Below, one piece after another: positions 14,292 through 56,827 of a stretch of DNA of 64,000 nucleotides. Numbering within the stretch: the stretch's first letter is position 1; each line of letters starts with the position of its first letter. Origin of the DNA: an uncultured bacterium. GTDB lineage: Bacteria; Desulfobacterota; Binatia; HRBIN30; CADEER01. The stretch spans positions 132,629 through 196,628 of the forward strand of contig CAVWTK010000007.1 in assembly GCA_963757755.1 (NCBI GenBank). Direction: 5' to 3'. Below the pieces are notes generated by a model, which was given only the letters and a program-made list of their open reading frames with translations, searched no databases and was not told the DNA's origin. A program made the position numbers and the translations under genes.

Positions 14292-15082
<791 letters not shown>

Positions 15083-15130
15083 GGGCGGCTCCTTCGGCGC
15101 GTTGTGTGGCAGGCGCGGGATGAGACGGCA

Positions 15131-15238
15131 AGGAGCGCGGGCCTCCAGGCCCGTCGGGTCGGCGCAGCCGACCCGGTGCGCGGGGCCTCGCACTGCGCCG
15201 CCCCGCGGGCGGCGACGGGCCTGGAGGCCCGCGCTCCT
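15131..15238. repeat. GC-rich nested palindromic element, AGGAGCGCGGGCCTCC type
   Basis: Perfect 26-bp arms aggagcgcgggcctccaggcccgtcg / cgacgggcctggaggcccgcgctcct, with inner hairpins. Confidence 0.85.
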
Positions 15239-15241
15239 ACG

Positions 15242-15745
15242 CTATGCTGCGCGCGAGCCCAGGATCCTGGCGATGATTTCGTCGACCGGCAGCGTCGCGT
15301 CGATCACCAGCGCGTCCTGCGGCTCCTCCAACGTCGCCAACTGGCTCTCGAGCAACGCCGGCCCAAAGAAGTGCCCGCGCCGAGCCGCCAGCCTCTCCGC
15401 CAGCACGGCGCGATCGGCGCGCAGATACACGAGCCGCGCGCGGGCGATCCCGTCGAGCAGCACCGCGCGATACGCCGCCCTCAGCGCCGAGCACGCGAGC
15501 ACCACGCCCTGATCTGCCGCCGCGTACCGCGCCAGCACGTCGTGCAGCGCCGCCAGCCACGGCGCGCGGTCGGCGTCGTCGAGCGGCTCGCCACGTTGCA
15601 TCTTGGCGCGGTTCGCCGGTGGGTGCAGGTCGTCGGCGTCGACGAACCCGGCGCCGAGCCGCGCCGCGAGCCGCGTGCCGACCGTGCTCTTACCGGAGCC
15701 GGCGGCGCCCATGATCACGATCGACGGCGCCGGCGTACCGGCCAT
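15242..15745 (-). CDS. gntK: gluconokinase
   Basis: P-loop GAAGSGKSTVG followed by FVDADDLHPPANRAKMQRGEPLDDADRAPWL, which is typical of GntK-type kinases. Confidence 0.8.
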   Translation of the reverse strand: MAGTPAPSIVIMGAAGSGKSTVGTRLAARLGAGFVDADDLHPPANRAKMQRGEPLDDADRAPWLAALHDVLARYAAADQGVVLACSALRAAYRAVLLDGIARARLVYLRADRAVLAERLAARRGHFFGPALLESQLATLEEPQDALVIDATLPVDEIIARILGSRAA

Positions 15746-15764
15746 GGCGGAGGCGGCGGCGCGC

Positions 15765-17306
15765 TCAGGGGCGCGACGCGACCACGGACGACGGCGGCGC
15801 CGGCGCGTCCGCCATCCAGTGCGTCGCGCCGGCTTTGGTGAGCCGTCCCAACAGCATCTGGGTCGTCGGCTCGATGCGGTCGAGGAACGGCTTCGGGTAG
15901 AGGCCGATCCAGAAGATCATGCACGAGGATCGGGGCGATCGCGAGCACCTCGCGCACCGAGAGATCCTCGAGCGTCTTGTTCACGGCGTGCTTCACCGGG
16001 CCGAAGAAGACGTGCTTGTAGAGCGTCAGCATGTAGGCGGCGCCAAGCACGACGCCGAAGGACGCCGATGCCGCCCGCCAGCCAGTGGGCGCGGAAGGCG
16101 CCGAGCAGGATGAGGAACTCGCCGACGAAGCCGTTGGTCCCCGGCAGGCCGATCGACGACAGCGTGATGACCAGGAAGAGCGCCGCGAACGTCGGCATGA
16201 TGCTCCACAGCCCGCCGTACTCCTCGATCAGGCGCGTGTGGCGGCGATGGTAGATGTAGCCGACGAGGATGAAGAGCGCGCCGGTCGACAGGCCGTGGTT
16301 GATCATCTGCAGCACGCTGCCGGTCACGCCGACGTTGTTGAAGGCATAGAGGCCGAGCATGACGAAGCCCATGTGGCTCACGGACGAGTAGGCCACCAGC
16401 CGCTTCATGTCGGGCTGCAGCAGCGCGACCATGGCGCCGTAGATGATGCCGACCACCGCCAGGGTCATGATCACCGGGAACGCCTGCTCGGCGGCGTGCG
16501 GGAACATCGGCAGCGAGAAGCGCAGGAACGCCGTAGCAGCCCATCTTCAGGAGGACGCCGGCGAGATCGACCGAGCCGCCGGTCGGCGCTTCGGTGTGCG
16601 CGTCGGGCAGCCAGGTGTGCAGCGGCACCATCGGCACCTTGATCATGAACGCCAAGGTGAACGCGGCGAACAGGAGCACCTGCTCGAGGTCGGTGAGGTC
16701 CACCGAATAGAGCGTGACGATGTCGAAGGTGAGCGGATGCGTCTGCGCGTGGCGCAGGACGAGGTAGATCATGCCGGCCAGCATCAGCGCGCTGCCGCTC
16801 ATGGTGAAGAGCACGAACTTGATCGTCGCGTAGCGGCGGTTCGGGCCGCCCCACACGCCGATGATGAAGAACATCGGGAACAGCATCAGCTCCCAGAAGA
16901 GGAAGAACAGGAACAGGTCGACCGCCAGCAGCGCGCCGAGCATCATCCCCTCGAGGGCGAGGATGAGCATCATGAACTGCTTGCAGTTCTTCACGATGTC
17001 GCCCCACGCCGCGAGGATGATCGAGGGCGTCAGCAGGGTGGTCAGGAGCACGAGCCACAGCGAGAAGCCGTCGACGCCGAGCGCGTAATTGACGCCGAGG
17101 GCGGGGATCCACACGGCGCGCTCGGTGAGCTGCAGATCGCCGACCCCGGCCTGGAACATCGCCAGCATGATCAGTGCGAGCCCGAAGGGGATGAGCGAGA
17201 ACGCAAACGCCGCGCGGCGCGGGATCTGGAGCGGCTCGCCCGGGAGCAGGCCGATGAGGAACGCGCCGGCGAGCGGTGAGAAGATGATCAGCGACAGGAT
17301 CGGCAT
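15765..17306 (-). pseudogene. nuoM: NADH-quinone oxidoreductase chain M-like antiporter subunit, at least 3 frameshifts
   Basis: Conserved NuoM sequence is split over ORFs 16026..17336, 15917..16507 and 15715..16050. The last 55 codons (IFWIGLYPKPFLDRIEP...) are in a further frame after an extra C near 15925. Whether it is truly a pseudogene or a sequencing artefact is unresolved. Confidence 0.8.
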
Positions 17307-17316
17307 CGCGCGCCCC

Positions 17317-19251
17317 TCAGACCACCAGTATCGCAACCACGAACAGGGCGCCGATCAGCATCGCCAACGCGTACGCCTGCACGTTGCCGGTCTGCAGCCG
17401 GCGGACGCGGCCGCCGATGACGCGGACGAGGTCGCCGACGCCATTCACGGCACCGTCGATGTACTCCGTGTCGACCACCTGCCAGAAGTAGCGCGACAGG
17501 CGCACGTACGGCTGGATGAACAGCATGTCGTAGAGCTCGTCGACGTAGTACTTGTTCCACAGCACCCGGTACACCGCGCTGAGACGCGCGGCGATGCGGT
17601 CGGCGAGGTCCGACGGCTGGCCGTACATCAGATAGTCGAGCCCGATGCCGGCCAGGCCGACGCCGCTGGCGACGGCGATGAGGAACACGAGCGTACCGGT
17701 CGTCGGGTGAGGCACGTGCCGCGAGCATCGCCACCGACGGCTCGAGGTAGTGGCCGATCTCGTCGCCCCACAGCAAGCCGTGCGGCAGGCCGATCCAGCC
17801 GCCGAACGCCGACGAGCACCGCCAGCACGATCAGCGGGATCGTCATGGTGCTCGGCGACTCGTGCAGGTGGTGCGCTTTCTCCGGATCGACGCGGCTCGT
17901 CGCCCTCGAAGGCGAGGAAATAGGCGCGGAAGACGTAGAAGGCGGTCATGCCGGCGGCGACGACGCCGATCAGCCACAGCCAGGTGTGGCCGCTCATGTA
18001 GGCGGCCTCGAGGATCATGTCCTTCGAGAAGAAGCCGGAGAAGCCGGGGAAGCCGGAGATCGCCAGGGCCGCGACCAGGAAGGTGCGCGCGGTGATCGGC
18101 ATCTGCCTTCTTCAGGCCGCCCATCTTGAAGACGTCGAGCTCGCCGTGCATCGCGTGCATGACGCTGCCGGCGCAGAGGAACAGGCAGCGCCTTGAAGAA
18201 GGCGTGCGTCATCAGATGGAAGATCGCCGCCGAGAAGGCGCCGCAGCCGAGGGCGAGGAACATGTAGCCGAGCTGCGAGACGGTCGAGTAGGCGAGGATC
18301 TTCTTGAGGTCGCGCTGCACGAGGCCGATGGTCGCCGCGAAGAACGCGGTGGCGGCACCGATGATGGCGACGAGGTTCAACGTCTCCGGCGAGAGCACGT
18401 AGAGCGGCGACAGGCGGGCGATCATGTAGACGCCGGCGGTCACCATGGTGGCGGCGTGGATCAGCGCCGAGACCGGCGTCGGGCCGGCCATCGCGTCGGG
18501 CAGCCAGACGAACAGCGGAATCTGCGCCGACTTGCCGGTGGCGCCGATGAACAGCAGCAGGCAGACGGCCGTGACCACCGCCGGCGACCACTCCGCCAGC
18601 TTGCGGCGCGAGGCGGTTGATGTCGGCGAAGACCAGCGTCGGCGAATCGACCTGACCGAGGCTCCAGAAGAGCAGGAACATGCCGACCAGGAAGGCGGCG
18701 TCGCCGATGCGGTTGGCGATGAAGGCCTTGCGGCCGGCATCGGCGTTGGCCTCGTCGAGGTACCAGAAGCCGATCAGCAGATACGAGCAGAGGCCGACGC
18801 CCTCCCAGCCGATGAACATCATCGGCAGCGAGTCGCCGAGCACCAGGATCAGCATCGCCGTGGTGAACAGGTTCAGGTAGGCGAAGAACCGCGCCACGTC
18901 CGGATCGTCGTGCATGTAGCCGAGCGAGTAGACGTGGATGAGGAAGCCGACGCCGGTGATGATGAGGATCATCACGCTCGTCAGGTGATCGACGCGGAAG
19001 GCGGCCTCGAGGGTCAGCGGCGTCGCATGGATCCACGTGTACATGCGGTCGAGCAGCGCGCCCTCGGGCGGGAGCTGCAGGAGCTGGCCCACCGTGACCA
19101 GGGCGAACGCGAACGCCGCCAAGACCGACAGCGGACCCGCGAGCTTCGCCAGCGCCGCGCGGTTGGTCTTCGCGGCGATCAGGCAGAGGATCGTGCCGAT
19201 CAACGGACAGAGCACGATCCAGCGGAGGAGGGCCGTTTCGACTACGGGCAT
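17317..19251 (-). pseudogene. nuoL: NADH-quinone oxidoreductase chain L-like antiporter subunit, at least 6 frameshifts
   Basis: The N-terminus [14 protein letters not shown]...[17 protein letters not shown] is in the frame of ORF 18112..20316. It continues in ORFs 18015..18740, 17843..18160, 17317..18102, 17628..17846 and 17288..17776. Full length is about 645 codons. Confidence 0.8.
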
Positions 19252-19321
19252 ATCATTAGCGGGGTTGAACAGCCGCCGGTTCTTGCATGAACGGTTCGAC
19301 GCGGCAAGTCTAGACTGCGCC

Positions 19322-19489
19322 AGGAGCGCGGGCCTCCGTGCCCGTGGCGACGCGGAGCGTCGCCGGAGTGGACGCGGCGGCAGGCGCGAGACACCATCGG
19401 TCTCGGCGAGCATGCATGTCAACGCCACGCCCGCCGCGCTCCTCCGGGCGACGCTCCGCACCGCCACGGGCACGGAGGCCCGCGCTCCT
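19322..19489. repeat. GC-rich nested palindromic element, AGGAGCGCGGGCCTCC type (long form)
   Basis: 43-nt arms with 2 mismatches. The inner mini-hairpin is GGCGACGCGGAGCGTCGCC. It lies in the divergent nuoL/MHS promoter region. Confidence 0.85.
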
Positions 19490-19500
19490 TCCCGCCCCAC

Positions 19501-20793
19501 GTGATAGAAGCGGCGCGCCATGGCCGCGTCGGAACGATCCGCCGCCCGTCTCTCCCGCTGGCGCTGATCGCCGGAATGTCCGGCAATTTGATGGAGTGGT
19601 ACGACTTCGCGCTCTACGGCGTGCTCGCCTCCACGCTCGGCCAGCTCTTCTTTCCGAGCGGGAACCGGCTGCTGGCGTTGCTCTCCGTCTTCGGCGTCTT
19701 CGCCGCCGGCTACCTGATGCGCGTCATCGGCGGCGGCGCGTTCGGCCATATCGCCGATCGGCTCGGCCGCCGCCGGGCGCTGCTGCTCTCGGCCGCCAGC
19801 ATGGCCGTCGCCACGGCCCTCGTCGGCTGCCTTCCCACCTACGCCACCGCCGGCGTGGCGGCGCCGGTGCTGTTCACGGTCTTCCGGCTGATTCAGGGCC
19901 TGTCCGTGGGCGGCGAGTTCACCACCTCGGTCGCCTATCTGATCGAGCAGGCGCCGCCGCACCGGCGCGCGCTGCAGGGCAGCCTCGCCGGCCTCACCGG
20001 CGGCATCGGCATCCTTCTCGGCTCGGCGCTCGGCAACGCACTGTTCGCCATCTACAGCCCCGAGGAGGTGCTCGCCTGGGCGTGGCGGCTGCCCTTCCTG
20101 CTCTCCGTGCCGCTCGGCCTGTCGATGGCGATCCTGCGCGCGACCCTGCCGGCGGATGCGCCCGACGAAACCGCGGCCGCGGCGCCGTCGCCGGTGTGGC
20201 GCGTGCTCCGCCAACACCGCGGCGAGATCCTGCGCGGCGTCCTGCTCGGCTGGGGTCCGAACGCCGCCTTTTATGCGGTCGCGGTCTTCCTCGGCTCGTT
20301 CCTCGCTACCGAGCACCTGCTCCCGCAGCAGACGGCGCTCGGTCTGCAGACCAGCGCGATCGCGCTGATGGTGGCGCTGACCCCGGTCGCCGGCTACCTC
20401 GCCGACCGGTTCGGCCGCCGCACCGTCGTGCTCACCGGGATCGCCGCCTGCGCCGTCGCCGCGGTGCCGCTACTGGCGATCCTGCGCGATGGCGATCCGA
20501 CCAACGATCTCTTCGCCGAGCTCGCGTTCGCCGTCTGCATCATCGCCACCCTTCCGCCGTACCAGGTGTGGCTCGCCGAGCGCTTCCCCCGCGATCTGCG
20601 CGCGAGCGGCCTCGGTCTCGCCTACAACGGCGCCGCGGGCATCCTCGGCGGCACGACGCCGCTGCTCTGCGTCTCGGCGGTGGAGCTGACCGGCAGCACG
20701 CTCGCGCCGGGCGCGTACGTCGCGGTCGCGTGCGCCGTGAGTCTGCTGATCGCGATCCGCACACCGGAGACCGGCGACCGGCCGCTGACCTGA
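19501..20793 (+). CDS. MFS transporter, MHS (metabolite:H+ symporter) family
   Basis: Intact 430-aa [16 protein letters not shown] motif, 12 predicted TM segments. GTG start. Confidence 0.8.
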
Positions 20794-20892
20794 CGATCGC
20801 CTCGAGCTGGATGGCCGGCGTCGCCAACTTCGGCGGCGCGAGGCCATAGAGCACGATCCTCGCCTCGCGTGCGGCAATCTTCTCATGAAGCA

Positions 20893-22432
20893 TCATCCAA
20901 AGACCTTACCGCAGAGACGCGGAGGCGCGGAGCTCGCAGCAGCTCGCTCGTCCGATCTCTGCGTCTCCGCGCCTCTGCGGTGGAGCTCTGAGCTCCCCGC
21001 GGCGTCGCGCGCGGGGCGTTCATAGCCGGGGCGTAAGGTCGACATGAAGGCGACCAGCGCGGTGACTTCCGCCGGCCGCAGATTCTTGCCGTAGGCGGGC
21101 ATGTTGCCGCCGCCCTGCAGGACCTGGCGGACCAGTTGATCGGGGGTCAGGCGCGTCGCGACGTCGTCGAGGGCCGGGCCGCGCATGCCGCCCTCCCCGC
21201 CCAGGCTGTGGCAATTGCGGCACTGCTTCGCTTGCAGGACGATGGCGCCCTGCAACTCGAGCGGGCCGCGGCTCTTGACGAACTTGACGGGCGTTGGCGC
21301 GCCGCTCCACGCGTCCATCACCGGCGACCACGGCGAGTAGGTCCCGAGCCAGGCGAGCACGCTGCAGCGTGAGCATGATGACGATGACGCTCAGCACCGC
21401 CACGGGACGCCGCCGCGCGCTCTTCTCGCCGGTGTTGGAGAGGAACGGCACCAGGAAGAGGATGATGATGCCGACCACCGGCGCGACGAGGATGAGGACC
21501 GTCTCCATGTACGGCGGCAGCAGCGCGAAGGCGGAGAACAGCGGCAGGAAGTAGAAGTCGGGCCGCGGGTTGGTCTCGATCAGGGTGGGATTGGGCGGGC
21601 CGTTCGGACCCGCGGGGCCGAAATAGGCGGCGCAGGCGAGGATCGCGAGGATCAGGAAGCCGGCGAAGACGAGGTCCTTGCCGATCGCGTGCGGCACGAA
21701 GGCACGCCCTCTTTCTTGAGGATCTCTTCGTACTCCTCGTGGTAGGTCGCCGGGTCCACCGGCACGCCCGGCCGCGGATACTCGTTGATGCCCGCCGCCA
21801 GCACGAGGCGCAGGTGCACGCTGATCATGGCGATGATCAGGCCCGGCAGGACGAAGACGTGCAGCGTGAAGAAGCGCGAGAGCGTCTCGCCGGCGATGAT
21901 CGGTCCGCCGAGCAGCAGCGACGTGAGCGCCGCGCCGAGCACCGGCGTGCGCGCGAGGATCGCCGTGCCGATGCCGAGGCCCCAGTAGGCGTCCTGGTCG
22001 AAGCGCAGCACCTGGCCGGTGAACGCCATGCCGAGCGCGCACAGGAAGAGCACGCAGCCGGTGATCCAGGTCAGCTCGCGCGGATACTTGAAGGCGCCGA
22101 ACAGGAACACCTGGATCATGTGCAGCGTCATGATCGCCACCATGAAGTTGGAGCCCCAGTTGTGGACGGCGCGCAGAAACCAGCCGAGGTACTGGTCGTA
22201 GTTGAGGAAGATCAGGCTCGTCCACGCCTGGTCCGCCGACGGCACGTACGTCAGCGACAGGCACATGCCGGTGACGATCTGGATGACGAAGCACAGCAGC
22301 GTGCCGCTGCCGAAGACGTAGAACCAGCTGCCGGAGCTCGCCGGCACACTGTGCCCGGCCGTCGACTCGAACAGCTTGCGTCAGGTGCAGGCGTTCGTCG
22401 AGCCAGACGGCGATGTTCTGAGCCAGGCGCAT
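20893..22432 (-). pseudogene. cytochrome b with fused C-terminal mono-heme cytochrome c domain, at least 3 frameshifts
   Basis: The start MRLAQNIAVWLDERLHL, the cyt b core in ORF 21652..22347 (FYVFGSGTLLCFVIQIVTG...HNWGSNFMVAIMTLHM), a subunit-IV-like part (PDFYFLPLF) in ORF 21020..22432, and a CRNCH heme site in ORF 20893..21360. The C-terminal tail runs into a hairpin repeat, so the stop is uncertain. Confidence 0.75.
20906..20983. repeat. octamer-armed hairpin, TTCACC family (CGCRGAG variant)
   Basis: ccgcagagacgcggaggcgcggag / ctctgcgtctccgcgcctctgcgg. It lies between the convergent MHS transporter and cyt b 3' ends. Confidence 0.8.
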
Positions 22433-23027: not shown

Positions 23028-23133
23028 TTCACCACGGAGGCGCGGAGACACGGAGATCTCGGCGCGCGGGTCCCTCTTATTTTTTGTCTTCGTCTTCATT
23101 CCGTTCTCCGGATCTCCGTGCCTCCGTGGTGAA
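23028..23133. repeat. octamer-armed hairpin, TTCACC family (CACGGAG units) with ~55-nt loop insert
   Basis: ttcaccacggaggcgcggagacacggag ... ctccgtgcctccgtggtgaa. It lies between the cyt c stop and the Rieske start. Confidence 0.8.
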
Positions 23134-23135
23134 CA

Positions 23136-23803
23136 TCAGGGAAACTGTGGACGCTTCGAAACCATCCATGCCACGACGTCGCTGATCTCCTGCTCGCTCA
23201 TCGGCGTCTGCGAGCCGGCGCGCCAGTCGGGCATGCCGAGGTCGATCCGGCCGCAGATCACGGCGAGGCGCAGCGCCTGGTCGGTGACGAGGCCGAGGTA
23301 GGCGCCGTCGACCACCGAGCCGCCGTGCGGACCGCCGCTCCCGTCGGCACCATGGCAGGAGGCGCAGCGCGCCGCGTACACCTGCGCACCGGTGTCCGGT
23401 ACGCCGGGGGCCATCGCCGTGTACGGCGGCAGCTGTTCCGGACGCAGCCCGCGCGCCCCCCACGTGCTGATGAGGCCGTCGGCGATGATGCCGACCTGAT
23501 CGTCGGTCAGCATACCGCCCGACGACGGCAGCGAAGCCCGGCATCGTGGTGTTCGGCACGCCCTCCGCGGTCGCGTGGAGGAGACGCTCGCGGCCGGCGA
23601 TCGTCAGATAGACGGGATCGTTGAGCGGACGCGCGCCGCCGAAGAGACCGTCCTGCCCGTGACAGCCCGAACAGTTCTGGCCGTACAGCGTGGCGAAAGT
23701 CGACGACCTGCGCCGGCCGCAGCGGCCGATCCGCTTCGGTCGGCTTGCCCGGGAGCGAGTCGCAAGCGGCCAGCAGACGTGCGTCACCGCCAGCAGGAAG
23801 CAC
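23136..23803 (-). pseudogene. diheme cytochrome c (lipoprotein-like N-terminus), at least 2 frameshifts
   Basis: LLAACDS lipobox-like segment, first CSGCH site in the frame of ORF 23077..23787, second CASCH site in ORF 23136..23513. The start (GTG 23803) is tentative. Confidence 0.65.
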
Positions 23804-24681: not shown

Positions 24682-25265
24682 TCATCGTCCCACCACGTAG
24701 ACGACGGTGAACACGACGACCCACACCACGTCGACGAAGTGCCAGTACCACGACAGCACCTCGACCCGTTCAGCGTGCGACTCGCGCACCGCGCCGCGCA
24801 GCGCGAACACGAGCACCAATCCGAGCAACAGCAGTCCGACCGTGACGTGCCCCGCGTGGAAGCCGACCAGCGAGAAGTAGGTCGTGCCGAAGAGGTTGGT
24901 CCAGATCGTCAGGTTGTGGTCGTAGATCAGGCCCTTCCACTCGATGGCGGTGGCGACGAGGAAGAAGCCGCCGAGCGCGATGGTGACCGCCCACCACACG
25001 GCGAAGCCGCCGTGCGCGCCGCGGCGCAGCGCCCGCACCGCCAGGGTGATGGTGATGCTGCTCGACAGCAGCGCGATGGTGGCGAGCAGCGGCACGTCGA
25101 GCACATCCTGCGGGTACGGGCCGGTCAGGCTCTTGCCGATGTAGAAGAGGTACGCGGCGACGAAGACGGCGAACAGGCCGACTCGGCGAGGATCATGCAC
25201 GCCATTCCCACGCGCCCGCGGTTGGCGCCGTGGCCGACGGGCGCGCCGGCAGCGACCGCGCTCAC
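24682..25265 (-). pseudogene. ctaE: cytochrome c oxidase subunit III, 1 frameshift
   Basis: The C-terminal part of ORF 24682..26178 ([15 protein letters not shown]...[14 protein letters not shown]). The GTG start overlaps the cox1 stop (GTGA). Confidence 0.8.
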
Positions 25266-26937
25266 TCGTACTTCCAGTCGGGATCGTCGGGATGCTTGAG
25301 ATCCCACAGCGGACGGCGCGCTGCGCACCGTCGGGATGGTCTCGAAGTTGTAGTCCGGCGGCGGCGAGGTGGTGGACCACTCGAGCGTCCACGCGTCCCA
25401 CGGATCGTCGCCGGCCGGTGTGCCGCGGCGCAGCGCCCAGAAGATGTTGATCACCAGCAGCAGCACGCCGAGGATCTGGAACGGCACGCCGATGGTGGAC
25501 AACGCGTTCCACAGCTCGAGCCCGCGGCCGGAATCGTAGGTGTAGATGCGGCGCGGCATGCCGAGCATGCCGGAGATGTGCTGCGGCAGGAACGTCAGGT
25601 TGAAGCCGAGGGTGAAGATCCAGAAGTGCCACTTGCCGAGGCGCTCGCTGAGCATCCGGCCGGTGGCCTTGGGGAACCAGTAGTAGAAGGCGGCGAAGAC
25701 CGTGAAGAGCAGGCCGCCGATCAGCACGTAGTGGAAGTGGGCGACGACGAAGTAGGAGTCGGACAGCTGCCAGTCGAACGGCGCCGCCGCCAGCATCACG
25801 CCGGTCAACCCGGCGCAGAGGAACTGGAAGAGGAAGCCGGTGCAGAACAGCATCGGCGGCGCGAAGCGGATGCTTGCCGCCCCACATCGTGCCCAGCCAG
25901 TTGAAGATCTTGATGCCGGTGGGCACGGCGATGAGCATCGTCGAGAAGACGAAGAAGGTGTTGGCGCCGGCGGTCATGCCGACGGTGAACATGTGGTGCG
26001 CCCAGACGCCGAGGCTGATGAAGCCGATCGACACGGTCGCCGCGACCATCACCGAGTAGCCGAAGATCGGCTTGCGCGAGAACACCGGGATGATCTCGGA
26101 CGCGCAGGCGAACCCGGGCAGCATGAGGATGTAGACCTCGGGGTGGCCGAAGATCCAGAAGAAGTGCTGCCACAGCACCGGCCGAGCCGCCGGCCTGGGT
26201 GTCGAAGAAATGCGCGCCGAGGAAGCGGTCGAAGAGCAGCATCACCTGCGCCGCCGACAGCGGCGGCAGCGCGATGCAGCATCTGGAAGAAGACCACCAG
26301 CATCAGCCAGACGAAGAGCGGCAGGCGGCGGAAGGTCATGCCCGGGCAGCGCATGGTGAAGATGGTGGCGATCAGGTTGGCGGCGGTGGTGAGGCTGCCG
26401 ACGCCGCCGACCAGCAGGCCGATGATCCAGTAGTCGGTGCTGTTGCCGCGCGAGAAGGCGCGCCCGGTGAGCGGCGCGTAGGCGAACCAGCCGACGTCGG
26501 GCATCGAGCCGGCGCCGTACAGCCCGTCGCCGCCGAACACGCTGAAGTAGAGCAGCAGGCCGCCGAAGAGGAACATCCAGAAGCCGAAGGCGTTGAGGCG
26601 CGGGAACGCGAGGTCGCGCGCCCCGATCATCAGCGGGATGAGATAGTTCCCCATGCCGATGATGATCGGCATGCCGACCAGGAACACCATGCTGGTGCCG
26701 TGCATGGTGAACAGCCGGTTGAACACCTGCGGCGACAGGAAGGTGTTGTTCGGCACCGCCAGCTGGATGCGCATCGCCGTCGCCTCGAGCCCCGCGATGA
26801 CGAAGAACACCAGCCCCGCCATGATGTACATCAGCCCCGAGCTTCTTGTGATCGACCGTCGTCACCCACGCGTGCAGCACCGTGGTGACCCCGGGGCGCG
26901 TACGGGGAATCGCGATCGGATGTTCGGCGACAGCCAT
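25262..26937 (-). pseudogene. ctaD: cytochrome c oxidase subunit I, at least 5 frameshifts
   Basis: Highly conserved CoxI blocks ([16 protein letters not shown]-type [41 protein letters not shown]) are spread over ORFs 26242..26937, 26049..26831, 25805..26245, 24682..26178 and 25125..25853. Confidence 0.85.
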
Positions 26938-26950
26938 CGTTCAGACGCCT

Positions 26951-27021
26951 TTCACCACGGAGGCACGGAGACACGGAGCTTGGCGGCATTGTTCTCCGTG
27001 TCTCCGTGCCTCCGTGGTGAA
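26951..27021. repeat. octamer-armed hairpin, TTCACC family (CACGGAG units), perfect copy
   Basis: ttcaccacggaggcacggagacacggag - 15 nt - ctccgtgtctccgtgcctccgtggtgaa. It lies between the cox2 stop and the cox1 start. Confidence 0.9.
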
Positions 27022-27032
27022 TTCTTTTGTCT

Positions 27033-28101
27033 TCATTTCAACGTCGTCAGATACGCGACGATCTCTTTCACATCGGCATCCGCCAGCTGCATCGCCGGCA
27101 TCAGCACGCCTGGCTTGATCGCGTCGGGGTTGGTGATCCAGGCGTGGAGCGCGTCGGCGGTGTTCGGTGCGGCGCCGGCGGCGATGGTCTCGCGGCTCAT
27201 GAGGTGCGTGAGGTCGGGACCGAAGGCGCCGTCGGCGACGGTGCCGCCGATGCGGTGGCAGTTCATGCAGGCCACCGATTGGAACAGGTCGCGCCCGGTC
27301 GTCGCCGAGGTCGCCATCGCCGCCGGCGCGCGTTGTCCGGCGACCCACGCGTCGAACTCCGCCGGCGGATGGGCGATGACGCGCAGCATCATGCGCGCGT
27401 GCTGGGTGCCGCAGTACTCGGCGCACTGGCCGAGGTAGGTCCCGGCCTCGGTGCGGCTCGAACCACATGCGGTTCACGCGGTTGGGGATCACGTCGGTCT
27501 TGCCGTTCAGCTGCGGGATCCAGAAGCTGTGGACGACGTCGGCCGACTCGAGCGTCAGGAACGTCGCCCGCCCGACCGGCACGTGCAGCTCGTTGGCGGT
27601 GACGACGCCCTGCGTCCGGGTAGCGGAACTCCCACCACCACTGGTGGCCGATAACGCGCACGTGCAGGGCGTCGTCCGGCGGGGTCGCGTTCTCGATGGC
27701 GATCAGCGTCCGCGTCGTGACCAGGAAGAGCACGAAGACGATCAGCGTCGGGACCACCGTCCACGCCAGCTCGATCTGGTTGCTGCCGTAGATCTGCGGC
27801 GGCTCGCGGTCCTCATCGCCGGGCCGCGCCCGGAACCGTACGATGCTGTACGCGAGCAGGCCGCGCGACGATCACGAAGATGGCGGCACTGATGCCGAGC
27901 ACGAGCACCGACAGCACATGGATGCTGTCGCGCCGGCGGCGAGTGCGGATCGAAGATGCTCGGAACCGGCCCGGGCGCCGCCGCCGCGCATGTCGGTACG
28001 AGCAGGCTGGCCAGCAGCCCGAGCGCGCGTCTCGCCTCACGCTCTCGTACCCCGCACCACAACACGCGATCGGCTAACCACATCCGCGTCAAGGTCGTCA
28101 A
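27033..28101 (-). pseudogene. ctaC: cytochrome c oxidase subunit II with C-terminal cytochrome c domain (caa3 type), at least 3 frameshifts
   Basis: The CuA region (HSFWIPQLNGK...CAEYCGTQHARM) is split over frames. The CMNCH heme site is in ORF 27033..27392. The start may be Met 28083 instead. Confidence 0.8.
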
Positions 28102-28137: not shown

Positions 28138-28234
28138 GTGGAGTGCGGCGCGTCAGCGCCGCTGGTTCGGGGCGCGGCGTCAGCCGCGCTGACGCGCGGC
28201 TAGGGCAGAGCGGCGCTGACGCGCCGCACTCCAC
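28138..28234. repeat. GC-rich nested palindromic element
   Basis: Perfect 26-bp arms gtggagtgcggcgcgtcagcgccgct / agcggcgctgacgcgccgcactccac. An inner gcgtcagc...gctgacgc hairpin. Confidence 0.85.
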
Positions 28235-32513: not shown

Positions 32514-33533
32514 GTGATACGCGTCTCCCTTCCCGCGCGCATCAATGTCGTCGGCAGTCCGACCGACGCCTGCGAGGGCGCCTACGCCACCATCTCGGCG
32601 GCAGTCGAACGGCGCGGCGGCGCCGACATCGCGCCGGCGACGGGCGGCGAAGTGCCGCCGTCCGCGATCGTCGCCGCGGCCACGGCCGCCCTCTGCCGCT
32701 ACGTGCCCGAGCTGCCGGCCGCGATGGCGGCGCGGCCGGCGACGATCCGCACCTGGACGGACATCCCCGCCTCGAGCGGGCTCGGCGGCTCGTCGGTGCT
32801 GCTGTTGGCGGCGCTGGCGGCGTTGCGCGCCTTCTACGCGCTCGATGCGCGACGCTGGAACGACTACGCGCTGGCGGAGATCGCCCAGCGCGCCGAGGAA
32901 CGCGACCTCGGCGTGGTGTGCGGCTACGCCGACCGCTACGCGCCGCTCTTCGGCGACCTCGCCTACATCGCCTATCACGGCAAGCTCTGGCATGCGCCGC
33001 TCGGCGAGGAGCCCTACGCCACCTACGAGAAGCTCGGCACGCTGGTGCCGCCGCTGTCGTTCGTCGTCGCCACCACCGGCGTCGAGCGCCACTCCGGCGC
33101 CGTGCACGCGCCGATGCGCGCCAGGTATCTGCACGAGCGCCGCGCCGACCACGGGCCGCTGCTGGCCCTGGCGCGGCAGATGGGCGAGACGGCGTGGCGC
33201 GGCAAGATCGCCCTCCTCGCCCACGACCTCGCCGAGCTCGGCGAGCAGATCGACCGCAACCAGGCGCTGGTCGACCAGATGATGGAGGCCTGCGGCTTCG
33301 CCAGCGGCGCCGGCGACGAGGTCCGCGCCCTCGTCGCCGCCGCCCGCAGCGCGGGCGCCCTCGGGGCCAAGCTCACCGGCGCCGGCGGCGGCGGCGCCGT
33401 CTTCGCGCTGCCGCCGCCCGACGGCGACGAGCGCCTCGCCGACGCGCTGCGCACCTTCGCGGCGCGCGAAGGTCTGGCGAGCGAAGTGTTCGTCGTACCG
33501 GTAGCGCGCGACGGGTTGCGGATCGACAGATGA
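32514..33533 (+). CDS. GHMP-family sugar kinase
   Basis: PARINVVG, TDIPASSGLGGSSVLLLAAL (GHMP motif II), GAKLTGAGGGGAVFAL (motif III). GTG start. Confidence 0.75.
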   Translation: MIRVSLPARINVVGSPTDACEGAYATISAAVERRGGADIAPATGGEVPPSAIVAAATAALCRYVPELPAAMAARPATIRTWTDIPASSGLGGSSVLLLAALAALRAFYALDARRWNDYALAEIAQRAEERDLGVVCGYADRYAPLFGDLAYIAYHGKLWHAPLGEEPYATYEKLGTLVPPLSFVVATTGVERHSGAVHAPMRARYLHERRADHGPLLALARQMGETAWRGKIALLAHDLAELGEQIDRNQALVDQMMEACGFASGAGDEVRALVAAARSAGALGAKLTGAGGGGAVFALPPPDGDERLADALRTFAAREGLASEVFVVPVARDGLRIDR

Positions 33534-33539
33534 CGACCC

Positions 33540-33608
33540 TTCACCACGGAGACACGGAGGCACGGAGAGCCGCGCTTCGTCTCCGTGTCTCCGTGTCTCC
33601 GTGGTGAA
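33540..33608. repeat. octamer-armed hairpin, TTCACC family (CACGGAG units)
   Basis: ttcaccacggagacacggaggcacggag - 13 nt - ctccgtgtctccgtgtctccgtggtgaa. It starts 7 nt after the GHMP kinase stop and contains the nucleotidyltransferase GTG start. Confidence 0.9.
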
Positions 33609-35662: not shown

Positions 35663-35683
35663 TCCCGCTCTCGGGACCCGGAG

Positions 35684-35773
35684 AAGACAAAAGACAAAAG
35701 GCAAAAGACAAAAGGCCAAAGGTGAGGAGGGGCACTTTGGTTTGTCTTTTGCCTTTTGTCTTTTGCCTTTTGC
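35684..35773. repeat. octamer-armed hairpin, GACAAAAG units
   Basis: aagacaaaagacaaaaggcaaaagacaaaaggccaaagg - 12 nt - ctttggtttgtcttttgccttttgtcttttgccttttgc. It lies between the pgl stop and the rpiA start. Confidence 0.85.
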
Positions 35774-36472
35774 TCACCCCGCGCCTCCGACCGCGTCCCG
35801 ATCCGCCAGCAGAATCGCCCGCTCCTGCCGCACCCGGCCGCCTGGAATGGACGGATTGCCCGCGCGCAGCTTCGCCAGCGCGTCGACCTTCTCCGCGCCG
35901 GTGACGACCCAGAGGATCTGCCGGGCGCGGTCGATGAGCGGATAGGTCAGCGTCAGGCGACGCCGGTTCTGGTACGTGCCGGCGGTCGGCGCGACGTCGG
36001 CGGCGTGGACGCCGAGCACGGCGTCGTGCGGCACCAGGGAGGCGGTGTGGCCGTCGGGGCCGAGCCCGAGGTGGACGAGGTCGAGCACCGGCGGATCGCC
36101 GCACGCCGCGCGCAAGGTCGCGGCGTAGTCCTGCGCCGCGCGGTTCAGGTCGGCGTCATTGACGGGCATCGCGTGCACCTGCGCCGCGGGCAGCGGCACG
36201 GTGGCGAGCAGGCTCTCGCGCAGATGCGTGAGGTTGCGGTCGGGATCGCCGTCCGGCGCCACGCGCTCGTCGACCTGGAAGACGTCGACCCCCGGCCACG
36301 GCACGTCCTCGGCGGCCAGCAGGCGCAGCATCACCCACGGCGTGTGACCGCCGCTCACCGCGAAAGCAAAGCGCCCGCGCGCCTTCACCGCCTCGCGCGC
36401 CGCCGCCGCGATGATCTCCGCGGCGCGTTTCGCGACCGCGTCGGCGTTCTCGAGAATCTCAATCTGCATCAT
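35774..36472 (-). CDS. pgl: 6-phosphogluconolactonase
   Basis: FAVSGGHTP, FQVDERVAP, LGLGPDGHTASL. Confidence 0.88.
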   Translation of the reverse strand: MMQIEILENADAVAKRAAEIIAAAAREAVKARGRFAFAVSGGHTPWVMLRLLAAEDVPWPGVDVFQVDERVAPDGDPDRNLTHLRESLLATVPLPAAQVHAMPVNDADLNRAAQDYAATLRAACGDPPVLDLVHLGLGPDGHTASLVPHDAVLGVHAADVAPTAGTYQNRRRLTLTYPLIDRARQILWVVTGAEKVDALAKLRAGNPSIPGGRVRQERAILLADRDAVGGAG

Positions 36473-36523
36473 GCGCCTGCACCACAGCGACCGCGGAGGC
36501 CTGCGTGTTCCGCCGTGGTGATC

Positions 36524-37537: not shown

Positions 37538-37603
37538 GTGAATCCTCCTTCGCAGACGGGAGCCTGCTAACTACCGCGCCGTCGGGGCGTGTCAAACGGA
37601 AAA

Positions 37604-37687
37604 GCGTGAGCCGGTGAGCCGGTATGCCGGTATGCCGGTGACGGGCTCCCGACTGGCGTACTGGCGCACCGGCTCACTGGCGCACGC
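37604..37687. repeat. octamer-armed hairpin, GTGAGCCG/GTATGCCG units
   Basis: gcgtgagccggtgagccggtatgccggtatgccggtgac ... tggcgtactggcgcaccggctcactggcgcacgc. Pairing is imperfect. It lies between fdhD and gnd, and the right arm overlaps the last fdhD codons. Confidence 0.65.
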
Positions 37688-38498
37688 GGTTCCTCTGCCC
37701 GTAGACGTTGAACCGCTCTCCCCTCGCGAAGCCGATCAGCGCGATGCCGGCGCGCTCGGCGAGGTCGACGGCGAGAGACGTCGGTGCGGAGACGGCGGCG
37801 ACGATGGGGATGCGCGCGGCGAGCGCCTTCTGCGCGATCTCGAAGGAGATGCGGCCGGAGACGGCGAGGACGTGACCGGTGAGCGGCAGCGCGCCGCGGG
37901 CCATCGCCCAGCCGATGACCTTGTCGACGGCGTTGTGGCGGCCGACGTCCTCGCGCACGGCACGGACCGCGCCGGCCACGGTGAAGAGTCCGGCCGCATG
38001 CAGGCCGCCGGTCGCGGCGAACGCCGGCTGCGCGGCGGCGAGTTGCGCCATCACGGCGCGCACGACGTCGGGCGCGACGGTGGTCGGGTCGTCGAGCGGC
38101 GGCGCCACCGCCAACGCCTGCTCGATGCTGGCCTTGCCGCAGATCCCGCAGCTGGCGCTGGTGAACAGGTGGCGGCGCAGCGACTCGAGGTCGAGCGCGA
38201 CGTCGTCGCGCAGACTGACGGCGATGACATTGTCCTCGGCGTCCGGATGCTCGACGATGCGGCAGTGCCGCACGGCCGTGATCTCGTCCGCACCGCGCAC
38301 GATCCGCTCGGTGACGAGGAAGCCGCGCGCCAGCTCCTCGTCGTGGCCGGGCGTACGCATGAGCACGGCCATCGGCACGCCCCGCACCTGGATCTCGAGC
38401 GGCTCCTCGCACGCGACCGCATCGCGATCCGCCGACGCGCCCGCCGCCGCGACGCGGGTCAGCGCGACGGTGCGGATGGCATCGCCCTCGTCCTCCAT
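37674..38498 (-). CDS. fdhD: formate dehydrogenase accessory sulfurtransferase FdhD
   Basis: The lower part of ORF 37674..39875. SASCGICGKASIE and DVGRHNAVDKVIG. ATG at 38498. Confidence 0.85.
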   Translation of the reverse strand: MEDEGDAIRTVALTRVAAAGASADRDAVACEEPLEIQVRGVPMAVLMRTPGHDEELARGFLVTERIVRGADEITAVRHCRIVEHPDAEDNVIAVSLRDDVALDLESLRRHLFTSASCGICGKASIEQALAVAPPLDDPTTVAPDVVRAVMAQLAAAQPAFAATGGLHAAGLFTVAGAVRAVREDVGRHNAVDKVIGWAMARGALPLTGHVLAVSGRISFEIAQKALAARIPIVAAVSAPTSLAVDLAERAGIALIGFARGERFNVYGQRNRVRQ

Positions 38499-46621: not shown

Positions 46622-46707
46622 ACGTGCTGATGTGCTGACGTGCGGACGTGCTGACGTGACCTAGAGCCAGCGAACCTCAGTACGTCAGTACGTCAGCACG
46701 TCAGCAC
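46622..46707. repeat. octamer-armed hairpin, ACGTGCTG units
   Basis: acgtgctgatgtgctgacgtgcggacgtgctgacgtgac - 16 nt - tcagtacgtcagtacgtcagcacgtcagcac. It lies between the two adjacent ACAD genes. Confidence 0.85.
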
Positions 46708-46724
46708 TCTTTGAGGGAGTACCC

Positions 46725-55290: not shown

Positions 55291-56744
<1,454 letters not shown>

Positions 56745-56751
56745 TCCGGAT

Positions 56752-56827
56752 TTCACCACGGAGGCACGGAGCCACGGAGAAATCCCGTTCTAGGTTTTGC
56801 CTCCGTGTCTCCGTATCTCCGTGGTGA
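56752..56827. repeat. octamer-armed hairpin, TTCACC family (CACGGAG units)
   Basis: ttcaccacggaggcacggagccacggag - 21 nt - ctccgtgtctccgtatctccgtggtga. It lies between the sufB stop and the sufC start. Confidence 0.85.

What the first reader, a model, noticed from the sequence alone, without database searches (positions are those of the whole stretch)
26951..27021. Intercistronic TTCACC...GGTGAA hairpins whose arms are three tandem octamers
The best copy reads ttcac-CACGGAGg-CACGGAGa-CACGGAG, a 15-nt loop, then CTCCGTGt-CTCCGTGc-CTCCGTG-gtgaa, giving a 28-bp stem. Related copies lie at 23028-23133 (with a ~55-nt loop insert), 33540-33608 and 56752-56827. A variant built from CGCRGAG units lies at 20906-20983 and 60703-60778; both of its arms changed together, which is compensatory covariation. 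A degenerate copy lies at 36480-36520. Six of the seven copies sit in the 60-115-nt gap between consecutive cistrons of one operon: cox2|cox1, cyt c|Rieske, GHMP kinase|nucleotidyltransferase, sufB|sufC, sufU|sufT and gnd|pgl. This holds regardless of which strand is coding. The placement resembles REP/BIME elements, but I do not recognise the strict 8-nt internal periodicity of the arms from described REP, MITE or terminator classes. A U-rich tail flanks only some copies (for example 27022-27040, which is antisense to the operon), so these are not canonical intrinsic terminators. ORF callers translate them into recurrent peptides such as FTTEARRHGE and SPCLRGE.
Basis: partly seen in the sequence, partly recalled or inferred. 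Interest (0 to 1): 0.7.

Follow-up and report, generated by a model that had tools for sequence, protein, structure and literature searches.

The report
Mobile hairpins with tandem-octamer arms
These are copies of a REP/MITE-like mobile palindrome whose two arms are each three tandem 8-base units; it occurs in many bacterial phyla and viral contigs but has barely been described, and in this genome it sits inside operons where ribosomes apparently read straight through it.

Summary
Six clean copies and one decayed copy of a palindrome occur in the window: TTCAC + (CRCRGAG+N)x3, a variable centre, then the complement + GTGAA. Predicted folding energy is -49 to -63 kcal/mol (z -5 to -12).

It matches no Rfam family and is not a canonical terminator. 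It is best described as a non-autonomous, REP/MITE-like mobile element without target-site duplication. The same arms occur in at least 15 phyla and in viral contigs. Some contigs hold copies that share the whole element between unrelated flanks.

The only earlier record I found is a supplementary figure legend for Geobacter metallireducens (2009), "class 2 global regulator binding sites". No function was tested there.

New findings:
- In relatives of this Binatia-like genome, the same operon junctions (cox2|cox1, kinase|nucleotidyltransferase, pgl|rpiA) keep a tandem-repeat hairpin while its unit sequence and centre turn over.
- Arrays gain or lose whole units.
- Every clean window copy lies in a short relay ORF that starts at an ATG overlapping the upstream stop codon.

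I infer that ribosomes translate into and melt the hairpin (through all of it in five of six copies), which couples the flanking genes. The reason for the periodicity, the fixed arm polarity and the mobilising enzyme remain unexplained.

The parts
26951..27021 (.). Copy 1, CACGGAG type, perfect 28-bp stem with 15-nt centre; cox2|cox1 junction (operon on the - strand)
   Evidence: I10; -59.7 kcal/mol, z -12.4
26941..27036 (-). Relay mini-ORF (31 codons). Its ATG overlaps the COX2 stop (AAATGA). It crosses the whole hairpin and stops 3 nt before the COX1 ATG at 26937.
23028..23133 (.). Copy 2, CACGGAG/CGCGGAG units, 48-50-nt centre; cyt c|Rieske junction (- strand)
   Evidence: I15; -54.2, z -8.5
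23077..23136 (-). Relay mini-ORF (19 codons). Its ATG overlaps the cyt c stop (TGATG). It reads the 5' arm (MFTTEARR...) and stops in the centre.
33540..33608 (.). Copy 3, CACGGAG type, 13-nt centre; GHMP kinase|nucleotidyltransferase junction (+ strand)
   Evidence: I6; -59.5, z -11.3. The orthologous site is empty in L122, L129 and L131 and filled in L121 and L123-L126.
33530..33607 (+). Relay mini-ORF (25 codons). Its ATG overlaps the kinase stop (AGATGA). It stops at the TGA of GGTGAA, which overlaps the GTG start of the downstream gene (GTGGTGA, 33601/33604).
   Evidence: same arrangement in ortholog L121
56752..56827 (.). Copy 4, CACGGAG type, 21-nt centre; sufB|sufC junction (+ strand)
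   Evidence: -48.6, z -8.9
56741..56827 (+). Relay mini-ORF (28 codons). Its ATG overlaps the SufB stop (GGATGA). It ends at the TGA of GGTGAG, 17 nt before the sufC ATG at 56845.
20906..20983 (.). Copy 5, CGCRGAG type, 24-nt centre; downstream of cytochrome b (- strand)
   Evidence: -51.2, z -5.2. The orthologous site in L124 holds a different unit family, GTTGCGGC/GTTTCGGA.
20883..21023 (-). Relay mini-ORF (46 codons). Its ATG overlaps the upstream stop (CTATGA). It crosses the hairpin and ends overlapping the start region of the next gene.
60703..60778 (.). Copy 6, CGCRGAG type, 20-nt centre; sufU-like|sufT-like junction (+ strand)
   Evidence: -62.8, z -10.1
60693..60785 (+). Relay mini-ORF (30 codons). 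Its ATG overlaps the upstream stop (GAATGA). It crosses the hairpin and stops 12 nt after it.
36480..36520 (.). Copy 7, decayed two-unit remnant at gnd|pgl. The upstream stop is TAG and there is no relay start.
   Evidence: -22.4, z -2.3. L121 has a full CGCAGAG-type element at this junction.
35680..35775 (.). Related hairpin of another unit family: AAAAGRC heptamer array and its complement; pgl|rpiA junction (- strand). The pgl stop GGGTGA gives a GTG that opens an ORF through the hairpin, ending 4 nt after the rpiA ATG.
   Evidence: I11/I16; -50.2, z -10.2. Orthologs carry GAAGGAY or GATGAAG heptamers.
37596..37690 (.). Related hairpin: GTGAGCCG/GTATGCCG octamer arrays. On the - strand it is followed by GCTTTTCC and a conserved promoter-like TTGACAC-N17-TAGTTA upstream of gnd. 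Probably the fdhD terminator.
46622..46710 (.). Related hairpin: (GTGCTGAY)4 ... (GTCAGYAC)4 in a 107-nt gap between two + strand genes. No relay start.
   Evidence: -58.2, z -7.7

Best explanation
The copies belong to a family of short, non-autonomous, REP/MITE-like mobile palindromes.

Anatomy (shown). Each end is about 28 nt: a 5-nt head (TTCAC or a covarying variant) plus three tandem octamers (C-R-C-R-G-A-G + 1 spacer). The second end is the reverse complement. The centre is free in sequence and length (6 to more than 200 nt). There is no target-site duplication.

Behaviour (shown):
- The element is copied as a unit to new sites.
- It occurs in many phyla and in viral contigs.
- It lies mostly within 60 nt after a stop codon.
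- Its arrays gain and lose whole units.
- Unit types are replaced in concert on both arms.

In this Binatia-like lineage (shown). The elements occupy translationally coupled operon junctions, just 3' of an ancestral overlapping stop/start (xTGA). That start codon is retained although it needs very rare A-ending codons. It opens a short relay ORF that runs into the 5' arm. In five of six copies the ORF runs through the whole hairpin and ends 0-20 nt from the next gene's start.

Mechanism (inferred). In the mRNA the element folds into a hairpin of -50 to -63 kcal/mol that separates the two cistrons. Ribosomes finishing the upstream gene re-initiate at the overlapping ATG. They melt the hairpin as they translate it and terminate next to the downstream start. 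Expression of the downstream gene therefore stays tied to translation of the upstream one. On untranslated mRNA the hairpin would act as a barrier to 3'-5' decay or as a double-strand RNase site. The host has either co-opted the element or merely tamed it.

Not explained: the mobilising enzyme, the reason for 7-8-nt periodicity, and the fixed purine-5'/pyrimidine-3' polarity.
For: Family and structure:
- Enrichment and stability.
- Arms and free flanks covary.
- Orientation of adjacent arrays is 82 L-R against 8 R-L in genomes and 65:4 in viral contigs.

Mobility:
- Identical 28-nt arms lie between unrelated flanks at four window sites.
- Copies within one contig share arms plus interior. Similarity starts at TTCAC and ends at GTGAA, in either orientation, with no direct repeats at the borders: L170, L238, L107, L166.
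- The kinase|transferase junction is empty in some relatives and filled in others.

Distribution:
The hits span at least 15 phyla and include isolates such as Magnetospirillum sulfuroxidans and Lewinella cohaerens.
- The viral scan also hit its limit. Phage baseplate and P22-type coat genes lie between copies.

Position:
- 62% have an ORF end within 60 nt, against 14% for random positions. 16% sit between convergent gene ends, against 0.7%.

Dynamics:
- The only indel in 12.9 kb between two 99.5%-identical contigs is one 7-nt unit in an array.
- cox2|cox1 holds a hairpin in five of five genomes compared (the window and four relatives), with units CACGGAG, CGCRGAG or CGCGAAG and unrelated centres.
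- Window against L121: arms differ at 3 of 56 positions while 4-fold sites differ at 26%, and the centres cannot be aligned.

Translation:
- Six of six clean copies have an ATG overlapping the upstream stop.
- The last sense codons are AAA, AGA, GGA, GAA and CTA in a genome with 3.1% A at third positions. Their joint frequency is about 4e-8.
- The same xTGA plus through-ORF occurs in all five cox2|cox1 orthologs. In L125 the kinase ORF itself runs into the 5' arm.
Against: - No RNA-level signal. Sense-strand mismatches are 11 G.U against 18 A.C, and the sense strand folds better than the antisense only 10:7. Pairing could therefore be maintained at the DNA level, or simply by copying.
- The overlapping start is ancestral. 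It is the true start of the downstream gene in relatives without the element. Its presence alone does not prove selection for a relay.
- The open frame through the arms is nearly automatic, because the arms contain no stop in any frame.
- In other phyla most copies follow TAA, TAG or TGA stops without an overlapping start. The relay is therefore a feature of this lineage, not of the family.
- No transposase or RAYT was found near any copy.
- Centres of the window copies are unrelated, unlike typical MITEs or REPINs.
- There is no expression, end-mapping or ribosome data.
Confidence: 0.55

Rival explanations
1. Purely selfish palindromic DNA with no host function. Copies persist at the same junctions because those sites are insertion hot spots or the only tolerated sites. 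The relay ORF is just the orphaned start codon of the downstream gene, and the hairpin is mildly deleterious or neutral.
For: - The xTGA start is ancestral.
- Unit families are interchangeable at one site.
- Decayed remnants exist: window 36480, and solo 5'-arm remnants at cyt c|Rieske in L122 and L124.
- The elements occur in viral contigs and many phyla.
- There is no sense-strand pairing bias.
Against: - cox2|cox1 carries a hairpin in five of five genomes compared (the window and four relatives) despite complete sequence turnover.
- Arms evolve about five times more slowly than 4-fold sites.
- The rare A-ending codons that make the ATG are kept at five junctions where the downstream gene no longer uses that ATG.
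Confidence: 0.25
2. Arrays of double-strand DNA binding sites for a multimeric protein. The Geobacter authors proposed IHF/HU-type 'global regulators'. Ribbon-helix-helix proteins such as MetJ or omega also bind tandem 7-8-bp boxes. The two arrays would be bound as duplex DNA and no hairpin would be needed.
For: - Strict 7-8-bp tandem periodicity and a fixed relative orientation of the arrays are what cooperative protein binding would give.
- The proposal is in PMC2700814.
- Mismatches are strand-symmetric.
Against: - The unconstrained 5-nt heads and the spacer bases covary between the arms. Independent binding sites do not require that.
- The distance between arrays varies from 6 to more than 200 nt.
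- One junction uses unrelated units in relatives (CACGGAG, CGCGAAG, GTTGCGGC, AAAAGRC), which would need many different proteins.
- Copies lie inside transcribed and translated operon junctions, not at promoters.
Confidence: 0.08
3. Transcription terminators or attenuators. The long GC-rich stem stops or pauses RNA polymerase unless a closely following ribosome (on the relay ORF) prevents folding. Transcription of the distal genes would then depend on translation.
For: - The position directly after stop codons and between convergent genes.
- A sister hairpin at 37596-37690 is followed by a T-run and then a conserved promoter.
- Relay ORFs would give ribosome-dependent anti-termination.
Against: - None of the six CRCRGAG copies has a sense-strand U-tract.
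- Loops are 13-50 nt and stems 28 bp, far from canonical terminators. The terminator scan reports none.
- They sit inside obligatory operons (cox2|cox1, sufB|sufC), where termination would be harmful.
Confidence: 0.08
4. Hairpins grown in place by slippage, with no mobility. A short local stem is extended by tandem duplication of 7-8-nt segments on both arms and homogenised by contraction and expansion.
For: - Unit gain or loss between near-identical contigs.
- Unit number varies from 2 to 9.
- Each junction and lineage has its own unit family.
Against: - Identical 28-nt arms at four unrelated window sites and in many phyla.
- Whole-element copies with a shared interior.

Slippage explains the dynamics but not the spread.
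Confidence: 0.04

Closest known systems
[quoted passage not shown] 2009, PMC2700814, Additional file 8)
   Same: Three tandem repeats with consensus TCTCCGTS[Y] (= CTCCGTG + spacer). They are paired on opposite strands at a variable distance, with 21 pairs in that genome. Sister classes built from other 7-8-mers (GTTGCTYN x4, MTYCTGA x5) exist in the same genome, one of them between proB and proA. This matches the co-existing unit families found here.
   Different: That record is only an alignment legend with a speculative IHF/HU role. It gives no hairpin or mobile-element reading, no distribution beyond one genome, and no link to translation. I could not see the sequences themselves.
REP / BIME / REPIN elements mobilised by RAYT transposases (E. 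coli, Pseudomonas); from my own knowledge
   Same: Short extragenic palindromes in hundreds of copies, placed after genes and between cistrons, with no target-site duplication. They form mRNA hairpins that protect upstream mRNA. REP within about 15 nt of a stop codon affects terminating ribosomes.
   Different: REP has a conserved GTAG or CGTC head and a non-periodic stem of about 12-15 bp, and each clade has its own REP with a cognate RAYT gene flanked by REPs. Here the head is TTCAC-like and the arms are 28 nt and internally periodic. The same unit spans phyla and viral contigs, and no RAYT was seen (not testable genome-wide).
Correia/NEMIS elements of Neisseria and ERIC/IRU of enterobacteria (MITE-type repeats transcribed into mRNA); from my own knowledge
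   Same: Non-autonomous elements with terminal inverted repeats, inserted between genes and co-transcribed. The TIR hairpin is an RNase III (Correia) or RNase E (ERIC) target that changes mRNA stability.
   Different: Those have a TA duplication (Correia), a conserved interior and non-periodic TIRs. Here there is no duplication, the centre is mostly unconserved, and the TIRs are tandem octamers.
Cyanobacterial STRR (short tandemly repeated repetitive) heptamers and other intergenic heptamer arrays (Beggiatoaceae TAACTGA, PMC4679880; Nostoc, bioRxiv 10.1101/2022.06.06.494920)
   Same: Tandem 7-mers in intergenic DNA close to starts and stops, lineage-specific in unit sequence, with unknown function. 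The heptamer hairpin at window 35680-35775 is of this type.
   Different: In the two papers I read these are direct arrays upstream of genes, not obligatory inverted pairs forming 28-bp stems. The period is 7 rather than 8.
Rickettsia palindromic elements (RPE); from my own knowledge
   Same: Palindromic repeats tolerated inside translated sequence because they carry no stops.
   Different: RPEs are 100-150 bp, inserted in-frame within proteins, and restricted to Rickettsia. Here the element lies in a separate relay ORF or in the first codons of the downstream gene.

Membership tests
REP/REPIN-RAYT | Short imperfect palindrome, many dispersed extragenic copies | tested here: met
   7 copies in 64 kb; at least 120 loci in genomes and at least 120 in viral contigs
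REP/REPIN-RAYT | Conserved GTAG or CGTC tetranucleotide head | tested here: not met
   Heads are TTCAC, TGAAC, TTAAC, TCTCA and similar, and they covary with the other end
REP/REPIN-RAYT | Cognate RAYT (Y1/HUH transposase) gene flanked by the repeats | not testable with these tools
   Genes lying between pairs of copies are ordinary. Only 64 kb of a contig longer than 1.5 Mb was available. The window ORFs were not all scanned against Pfam.
REP/REPIN-RAYT | No target-site duplication | tested here: met
   Flanks of 10 paralogous copies show no direct repeats
MITE (DDE-transposase type) | Terminal inverted repeats | tested here: met
   28-nt ends, 91.6% paired over 62 copies
MITE (DDE-transposase type) | Target-site duplication of fixed length | tested here: not met
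MITE (DDE-transposase type) | Interior conserved among copies of a family | tested here: inconclusive
   Shared in L170, L238, L107 and L166. Unrelated among the window copies and in L010.
Intrinsic (Rho-independent) terminator | Short GC-rich stem, 3-8-nt loop, U-tract on the transcribed strand | tested here: not met
   Stems are 28 bp and loops 13-50 nt, with no sense-strand T-run. The scan finds none at the copies. The sister hairpin at 37596-37690 does have a T-run.
Geobacter class 2 paired tandem-repeat sites | Three tandem TCTCCGTS[Y] units, paired on opposite strands, variable distance | tested here: met
   The legend text matches the window copies. The Geobacter sequences themselves were not retrievable.
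Any Rfam RNA family | Score at or above the gathering threshold | tested here: not met
   Only tmRNA passes in the window. The element gives sub-threshold generic hairpin (miRNA precursor) hits.
Structured cis-regulatory RNA (selection on RNA pairing) | Compensatory changes with G.U tolerated on the transcribed strand only | tested here: inconclusive
   Covariation is strong but strand-symmetric
Cyanobacterial STRR-type tandem heptamers | Tandem 7-nt units in intergenic DNA | tested here: not met
   The finding's copies have period 8. A period-7 relative exists at 35680-35775.

The most novel reading that the evidence does not exclude
Tandem-repeat hairpins may be a pan-bacterial and phage-borne class of mobile element with its own, still unknown, mobilisation chemistry. 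That chemistry would recognise arrays of 7-8-mers in a fixed 5'-purine/3'-pyrimidine polarity and leave no target duplication. Hosts would have domesticated the elements as exchangeable intercistronic modules. Under this reading a ribosome-traversed hairpin, often with Shine-Dalgarno-like units paired to anti-Shine-Dalgarno-like units, sets translational coupling and mRNA fate at conserved operon junctions. Its sequence would be free to turn over by unit slippage and cassette-like replacement.
Probability: 0.15. Interest if true: 0.85.

Novelty: new variant of a known kind. Interest (0 to 1): 0.62.

Why it matters
Dispersed palindromes such as REP, Correia and ERIC are known to shape mRNA stability and operon stoichiometry, but each known family is confined to a narrow clade. 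This architecture differs in several ways:
- It recurs with nearly the same unit in at least 15 phyla and in viral contigs.
- It is absent from Rfam and has no name in the literature I could search.
- It causes spurious small ORF calls with recurrent peptides.
- It shows conservation of place and architecture without conservation of sequence.

If the relay-ORF reading is right, it gives a simple, testable way in which a very stable hairpin can sit inside essential operons (cytochrome oxidase, Suf) without uncoupling them. If a dedicated mobilising enzyme exists, it would be a new transposition system. At the least, a covariance or pattern model for these elements would improve annotation of MAGs and phage genomes.

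Tried and rejected
- Rfam at gathering and E-value thresholds gave only tmRNA and generic miRNA-like hairpin hits.
- A literature search for six exact two-unit strings found 0 papers. A generic search on 'CACGGAG' found irrelevant papers.
- The Geobacter supplements do not hold the sequences as text.
- BLAST of the element against the plasmid and phage collections gave no match. The low-complexity filter and the short query may be the cause, because the IUPAC scan of viral contigs did find it.
- I looked for a cargo or autonomous version. Long L...R pairs enclose ordinary genes: glyoxalase-like, L,D-transpeptidase-like, pyruvate dehydrogenase (E1) beta/transketolase-like, hydrolase, phage coat and baseplate.
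- No target-site duplication was found.
- The test for RNA-level selection by G.U against A.C on the sense strand was negative or inconclusive.
- Relay ORFs ending exactly at the TGA of GGTGAA occur in 2 of 6 window copies, which is no more than the 1/3 expected by frame. I do not claim this as a feature.
- A Chi-site array idea (protection of a breakage-prone palindrome centre) would explain the polarity. I rejected it as the main reading because several unrelated unit families co-exist in one genome.
- The metagenome scan with the kinase returned only 5 loci. The window's own contig could not be fetched by exact protein look-up.
- I did not run a full Pfam scan of all window ORFs. No transposase-like translation was noticed by eye, which is a weak negative.
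Full report
**1. Observation**

The best copy, 26951-27021, reads TTCAC-CACGGAG-G-CACGGAG-A-CACGGAG, a 15-nt centre, then CTCCGTG-T-CTCCGTG-C-CTCCGTG-GTGAA. This is a perfect 28-bp palindrome.

A two-unit degenerate pattern occurs 24 times in the window against 3.96 +/- 1.87 in dinucleotide shuffles. The six clean copies fold at -48.6 to -62.8 kcal/mol with z-scores of -5.2 to -12.4. The seventh copy (36480-36520) is a decayed remnant (z -2.3).

The window has 69.5% G+C. A kinase encoded in it is identical to a protein from a 1.5-Mb contig, and its relatives are labelled Candidatus Binatia. Several genes (COX1, SufB, SufC) are frame-broken, so the assembly carries indel errors.

- (GTGCTGAY)4...(GTCAGYAC)4 at 46622-46710
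- GTGAGCCG/GTATGCCG arrays at 37596-37690
- AAAAGRC heptamer arrays at 35680-35775

**2. Not a described RNA family, but seen once before**

Rfam gives nothing but tmRNA at gathering thresholds. The element itself gives only sub-threshold generic hairpin matches. No paper in the library contains the two-unit strings.

[quoted passage not shown] It also lists sister classes built from GTTGCTYN x4 and MTYCTGA x5, and speculates on IHF/HU binding (PMC2700814). That is the same element. It was never followed up as far as I could find.

Heptamer arrays in cyanobacteria and Beggiatoaceae are likewise described without a known function.

**3. Distribution**

A scan of one genome per species for CRCRGAGNCRCRGAGNCRCRGAG stopped at its 120-locus limit. 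My rough expectation for random sequence of equal base composition is about 17 hits in 596 Gb.

The hits come from Acidobacteriota, Planctomycetota, Gemmatimonadota, Chloroflexota, Cyanobacteria, Alpha-, Beta-, Gamma- and 'Delta'-proteobacteria, Bacteroidota, Verrucomicrobiota/Kiritimatiellia, Actinomycetota, Nitrospirota, Binatia and others. They include cultured isolates. Most are inverted pairs with the same architecture.

A scan of IMG/VR viral contigs also hit its limit, with the same heads (TTCAC...GTGAA). Genes between copies there include a phage baseplate hub and a P22-type coat protein.

**4. Anatomy across 62 copies**

- 91.6% of stem cells pair.
- 225 cells change on both sides, against 96 +/- 15 in shuffles.
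- The 5-nt heads were not used to select the copies, and they covary (TTCAC/GTGAA, TGAAC/GTTCA, TTGGC/GCCAA, TCTCA/TGAGA).
- Spacer bases are purines on the 5' arm and pyrimidines on the 3' arm. They are complementary more often than chance, but not strictly.
- The purine-rich array comes first on both strands. Adjacent arrays are 82 L-R against 8 R-L in genomes and 65:4 in viral contigs.
- Among unrelated unit families found without that pattern, 11 of 12 also have the purine-rich arm 5'. Several of these are orthologous, so the effective number is smaller.

**5. Evidence for mobility**

Identical arms lie between unrelated flanks at four window sites.

In several contigs two copies share arms and interior, while similarity stops exactly at TTCAC and GTGAA:
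- L170, 82% over 73 nt
- L238, 94% over 107 nt, inverted
- L107, 74% over 176 nt, inverted
- L166

No direct repeats flank any of ten such copies. No transposase lies between or beside copies. The element therefore behaves like a REP/REPIN or a duplication-free MITE whose mobilising enzyme is unknown.

**6. Orthologous junctions**

Relatives with 74-89% identical kinase keep gene order.

- cox2|cox1 carries a tandem-octamer hairpin in all five genomes compared (the window and four relatives). The units are CACGGAG (window, L122), a degenerate form (L124), CGCRGAG (L125) or CGCGAAG (L126). Centres are unrelated and heads differ, while the flanking coding sequence aligns.
- Kinase|nucleotidyltransferase is empty in L122, L129 and L131, where the genes overlap by GTGA or ATGA. 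It is filled with the CAC type in the window and L121, and with the CGC type in L123-L126.
- pgl|rpiA carries heptamer arrays of three different unit types, or nothing.
- The site after cytochrome b carries CGCRGAG in the window and GTTGCGGC-type units in L124.
- The fdhD|gnd hairpin is followed by a T-run and a conserved promoter-like sequence, so there the same architecture serves as a probable terminator.

Between the window and L121, 4-fold degenerate sites are 74% identical. The 56 arm bases differ at only 3 positions, all spacers, and the centres cannot be aligned.

Between two contigs 99.5% identical over 12.9 kb, the only indel is one 7-nt unit of the pgl|rpiA array.

In summary, place and architecture persist, arms are constrained or homogenised, centres churn, and arrays slip by whole units.

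**7. Translation**

Read in the sense of the operon, every clean window copy is preceded by an ATG that overlaps the upstream stop codon. Five are ATGA and one is TGATG. This ATG opens an ORF into the 5' arm.

In five of six copies the ORF crosses the whole hairpin and ends 0-20 nt from the next start. At 33607 its TGA overlaps the GTG start of the next gene.

The A that makes each ATG is the third base of AAA, AGA, GGA, GAA or CTA. In this genome only 3.1% of third positions are A, and these codons make up 8.4%, 1.3%, 4.5%, 14.5% and 0.5% of their amino acids. Their joint frequency is about 4e-8.

All five cox2|cox1 orthologs have the same arrangement (four ATGA, one GTGA). In L125 the kinase ORF itself runs into the arm and stops at a TGA created by a variant unit. 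The heptamer hairpin after pgl is preceded by GTGA, and its ORF ends 4 nt after the rpiA ATG.

Two caveats apply:
- The overlapping start is ancestral. It is the real start of the downstream gene where the element is absent.
- An open frame through stop-free arms is nearly automatic.

What is not automatic is that the start is retained after the downstream gene has moved to a new start. In other phyla most copies simply follow a stop codon (62% within 60 nt against 14% for random positions; 16% between convergent ends against 0.7%).

**8. Mechanism**

Shown: the anatomy, the spread, the position, the dynamics and the relay ORFs.

Inferred: in mRNA the element forms a very stable hairpin between cistrons. 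Ribosomes leaving the upstream gene restart at the overlapping ATG, unwind the stem while translating it, and terminate next to the downstream start. This preserves translational coupling. When untranslated, the hairpin would block 3' exonucleases or attract a double-strand RNase, as known for REP, Correia and ERIC elements (my own knowledge).

I could not show that pairing is selected at the RNA level. Sense-strand mismatches are 11 G.U against 18 A.C, and the sense strand folds better only 10:7.

Rivals are listed with their evidence:
- purely selfish DNA
- double-strand DNA protein-binding arrays
- terminators or attenuators
- in-place growth by slippage

**9. What remains strange**

- Why are the arms periodic at all, and why do they stay periodic after the unit is replaced?
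- Why is the purine-rich array always 5'? Its units are often Shine-Dalgarno-like (GGAG, GAAGG, AAGGA).
- How does one unit span many phyla and viral contigs with no enzyme in sight?
- Why are the centres of the window copies unrelated?

These points keep the finding interesting beyond 'another REP'.

**10. Verdict**

This is a real, widespread and essentially uncharacterised variant of the dispersed-palindrome kind. It was noted once, in a supplement. The relay-ORF context in this lineage is specific and testable.

Noticed in passing
window 3183-3534 (-): tmRNA gene, Rfam RF00023, 170.6 bits, full length.
   Followed up: no
window, e.g. ~56870-56880 (sufC), 24682-26937 (COX1/COX3), 55442-56744 (sufB): Several conserved genes change reading frame mid-gene. 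SufC starts MGDVILQIE in one frame and continues [15 protein letters not shown] in another. COX1 is split over ORFs. This suggests indel errors of a long-read MAG assembly, so ORF-based statements in this window need care.
   Followed up: partly
window 19322-19489 and 15131-15238: A second palindrome family sharing AGGAGCGCGGGCCTCC...: 59-nt arms (86% complementary) 50 nt apart, and 26-nt perfect arms 56 nt apart. Not periodic.
   Followed up: no
window 8733-8864 and 54534-54649: A third repeat family: GGAGGGCCGCGCTCCCGCGCGGCC and its complement, as inverted pairs 36-70 nt apart.
   Followed up: no
window 28138-28234: A perfect 26-nt inverted repeat (GTGGAGTGCGGCGCGTCAGCGCCGCT) with a 45-nt spacer, next to the GH8 gene.
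   Followed up: no
window ~37566-37597 (- strand): Promoter-like TTGACAC-N17-TAGTTA directly after the fdhD hairpin and T-run and upstream of gnd. It is conserved in L121, L123 and L125. The simple promoter scan did not report it.
   Followed up: partly
L005:560-1230 and L072:5990-6700: Several nested layers of different octamer arrays (CACAGAG, CGCAGAG, CGCAAAG, CACGAAG, CATCGCA) on the left, and their complements on the right, enclose a core of about 400 nt. The two cores are weakly collinear between these two Acidobacteriota MAGs and have no Rfam match. This could be a structured RNA, or successive insertions into hairpin centres.
   Followed up: partly
L162:5767-6094 (viral contig): Three head-to-tail copies of a 120-nt unit, each containing one octamer-arm hairpin with the same 42-nt centre: a tandem amplification of the whole element.
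   Followed up: no
L122:2870-2960 and L124:2810-2900 (cyt c|Rieske junction): Where the window has a full element, these relatives keep only a solo, degenerate 5'-arm-like stretch (CACCATGGAGACACCGAG; CCCGGAGGAGCGGAGCAACGG) just upstream of the Rieske start. It may serve as a ribosome-binding region.
   Followed up: no
L061 (Methanotrichaceae archaeon MAG), ~1290-1380: A CACAGAG-type hairpin (two-unit 5' arm, three-unit 3' arm, GTGAA head) in a contig binned as archaeal. This is either a real cross-domain occurrence or binning contamination.
   Followed up: no
L125 vs L126, positions 1-7900 vs 8135-21000: The two contigs are 99.5% identical over 12.9 kb but only 90.6% identical over the adjacent 7.9 kb, which includes the cox operon. 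This suggests recombination or a chimeric assembly.
   Followed up: no
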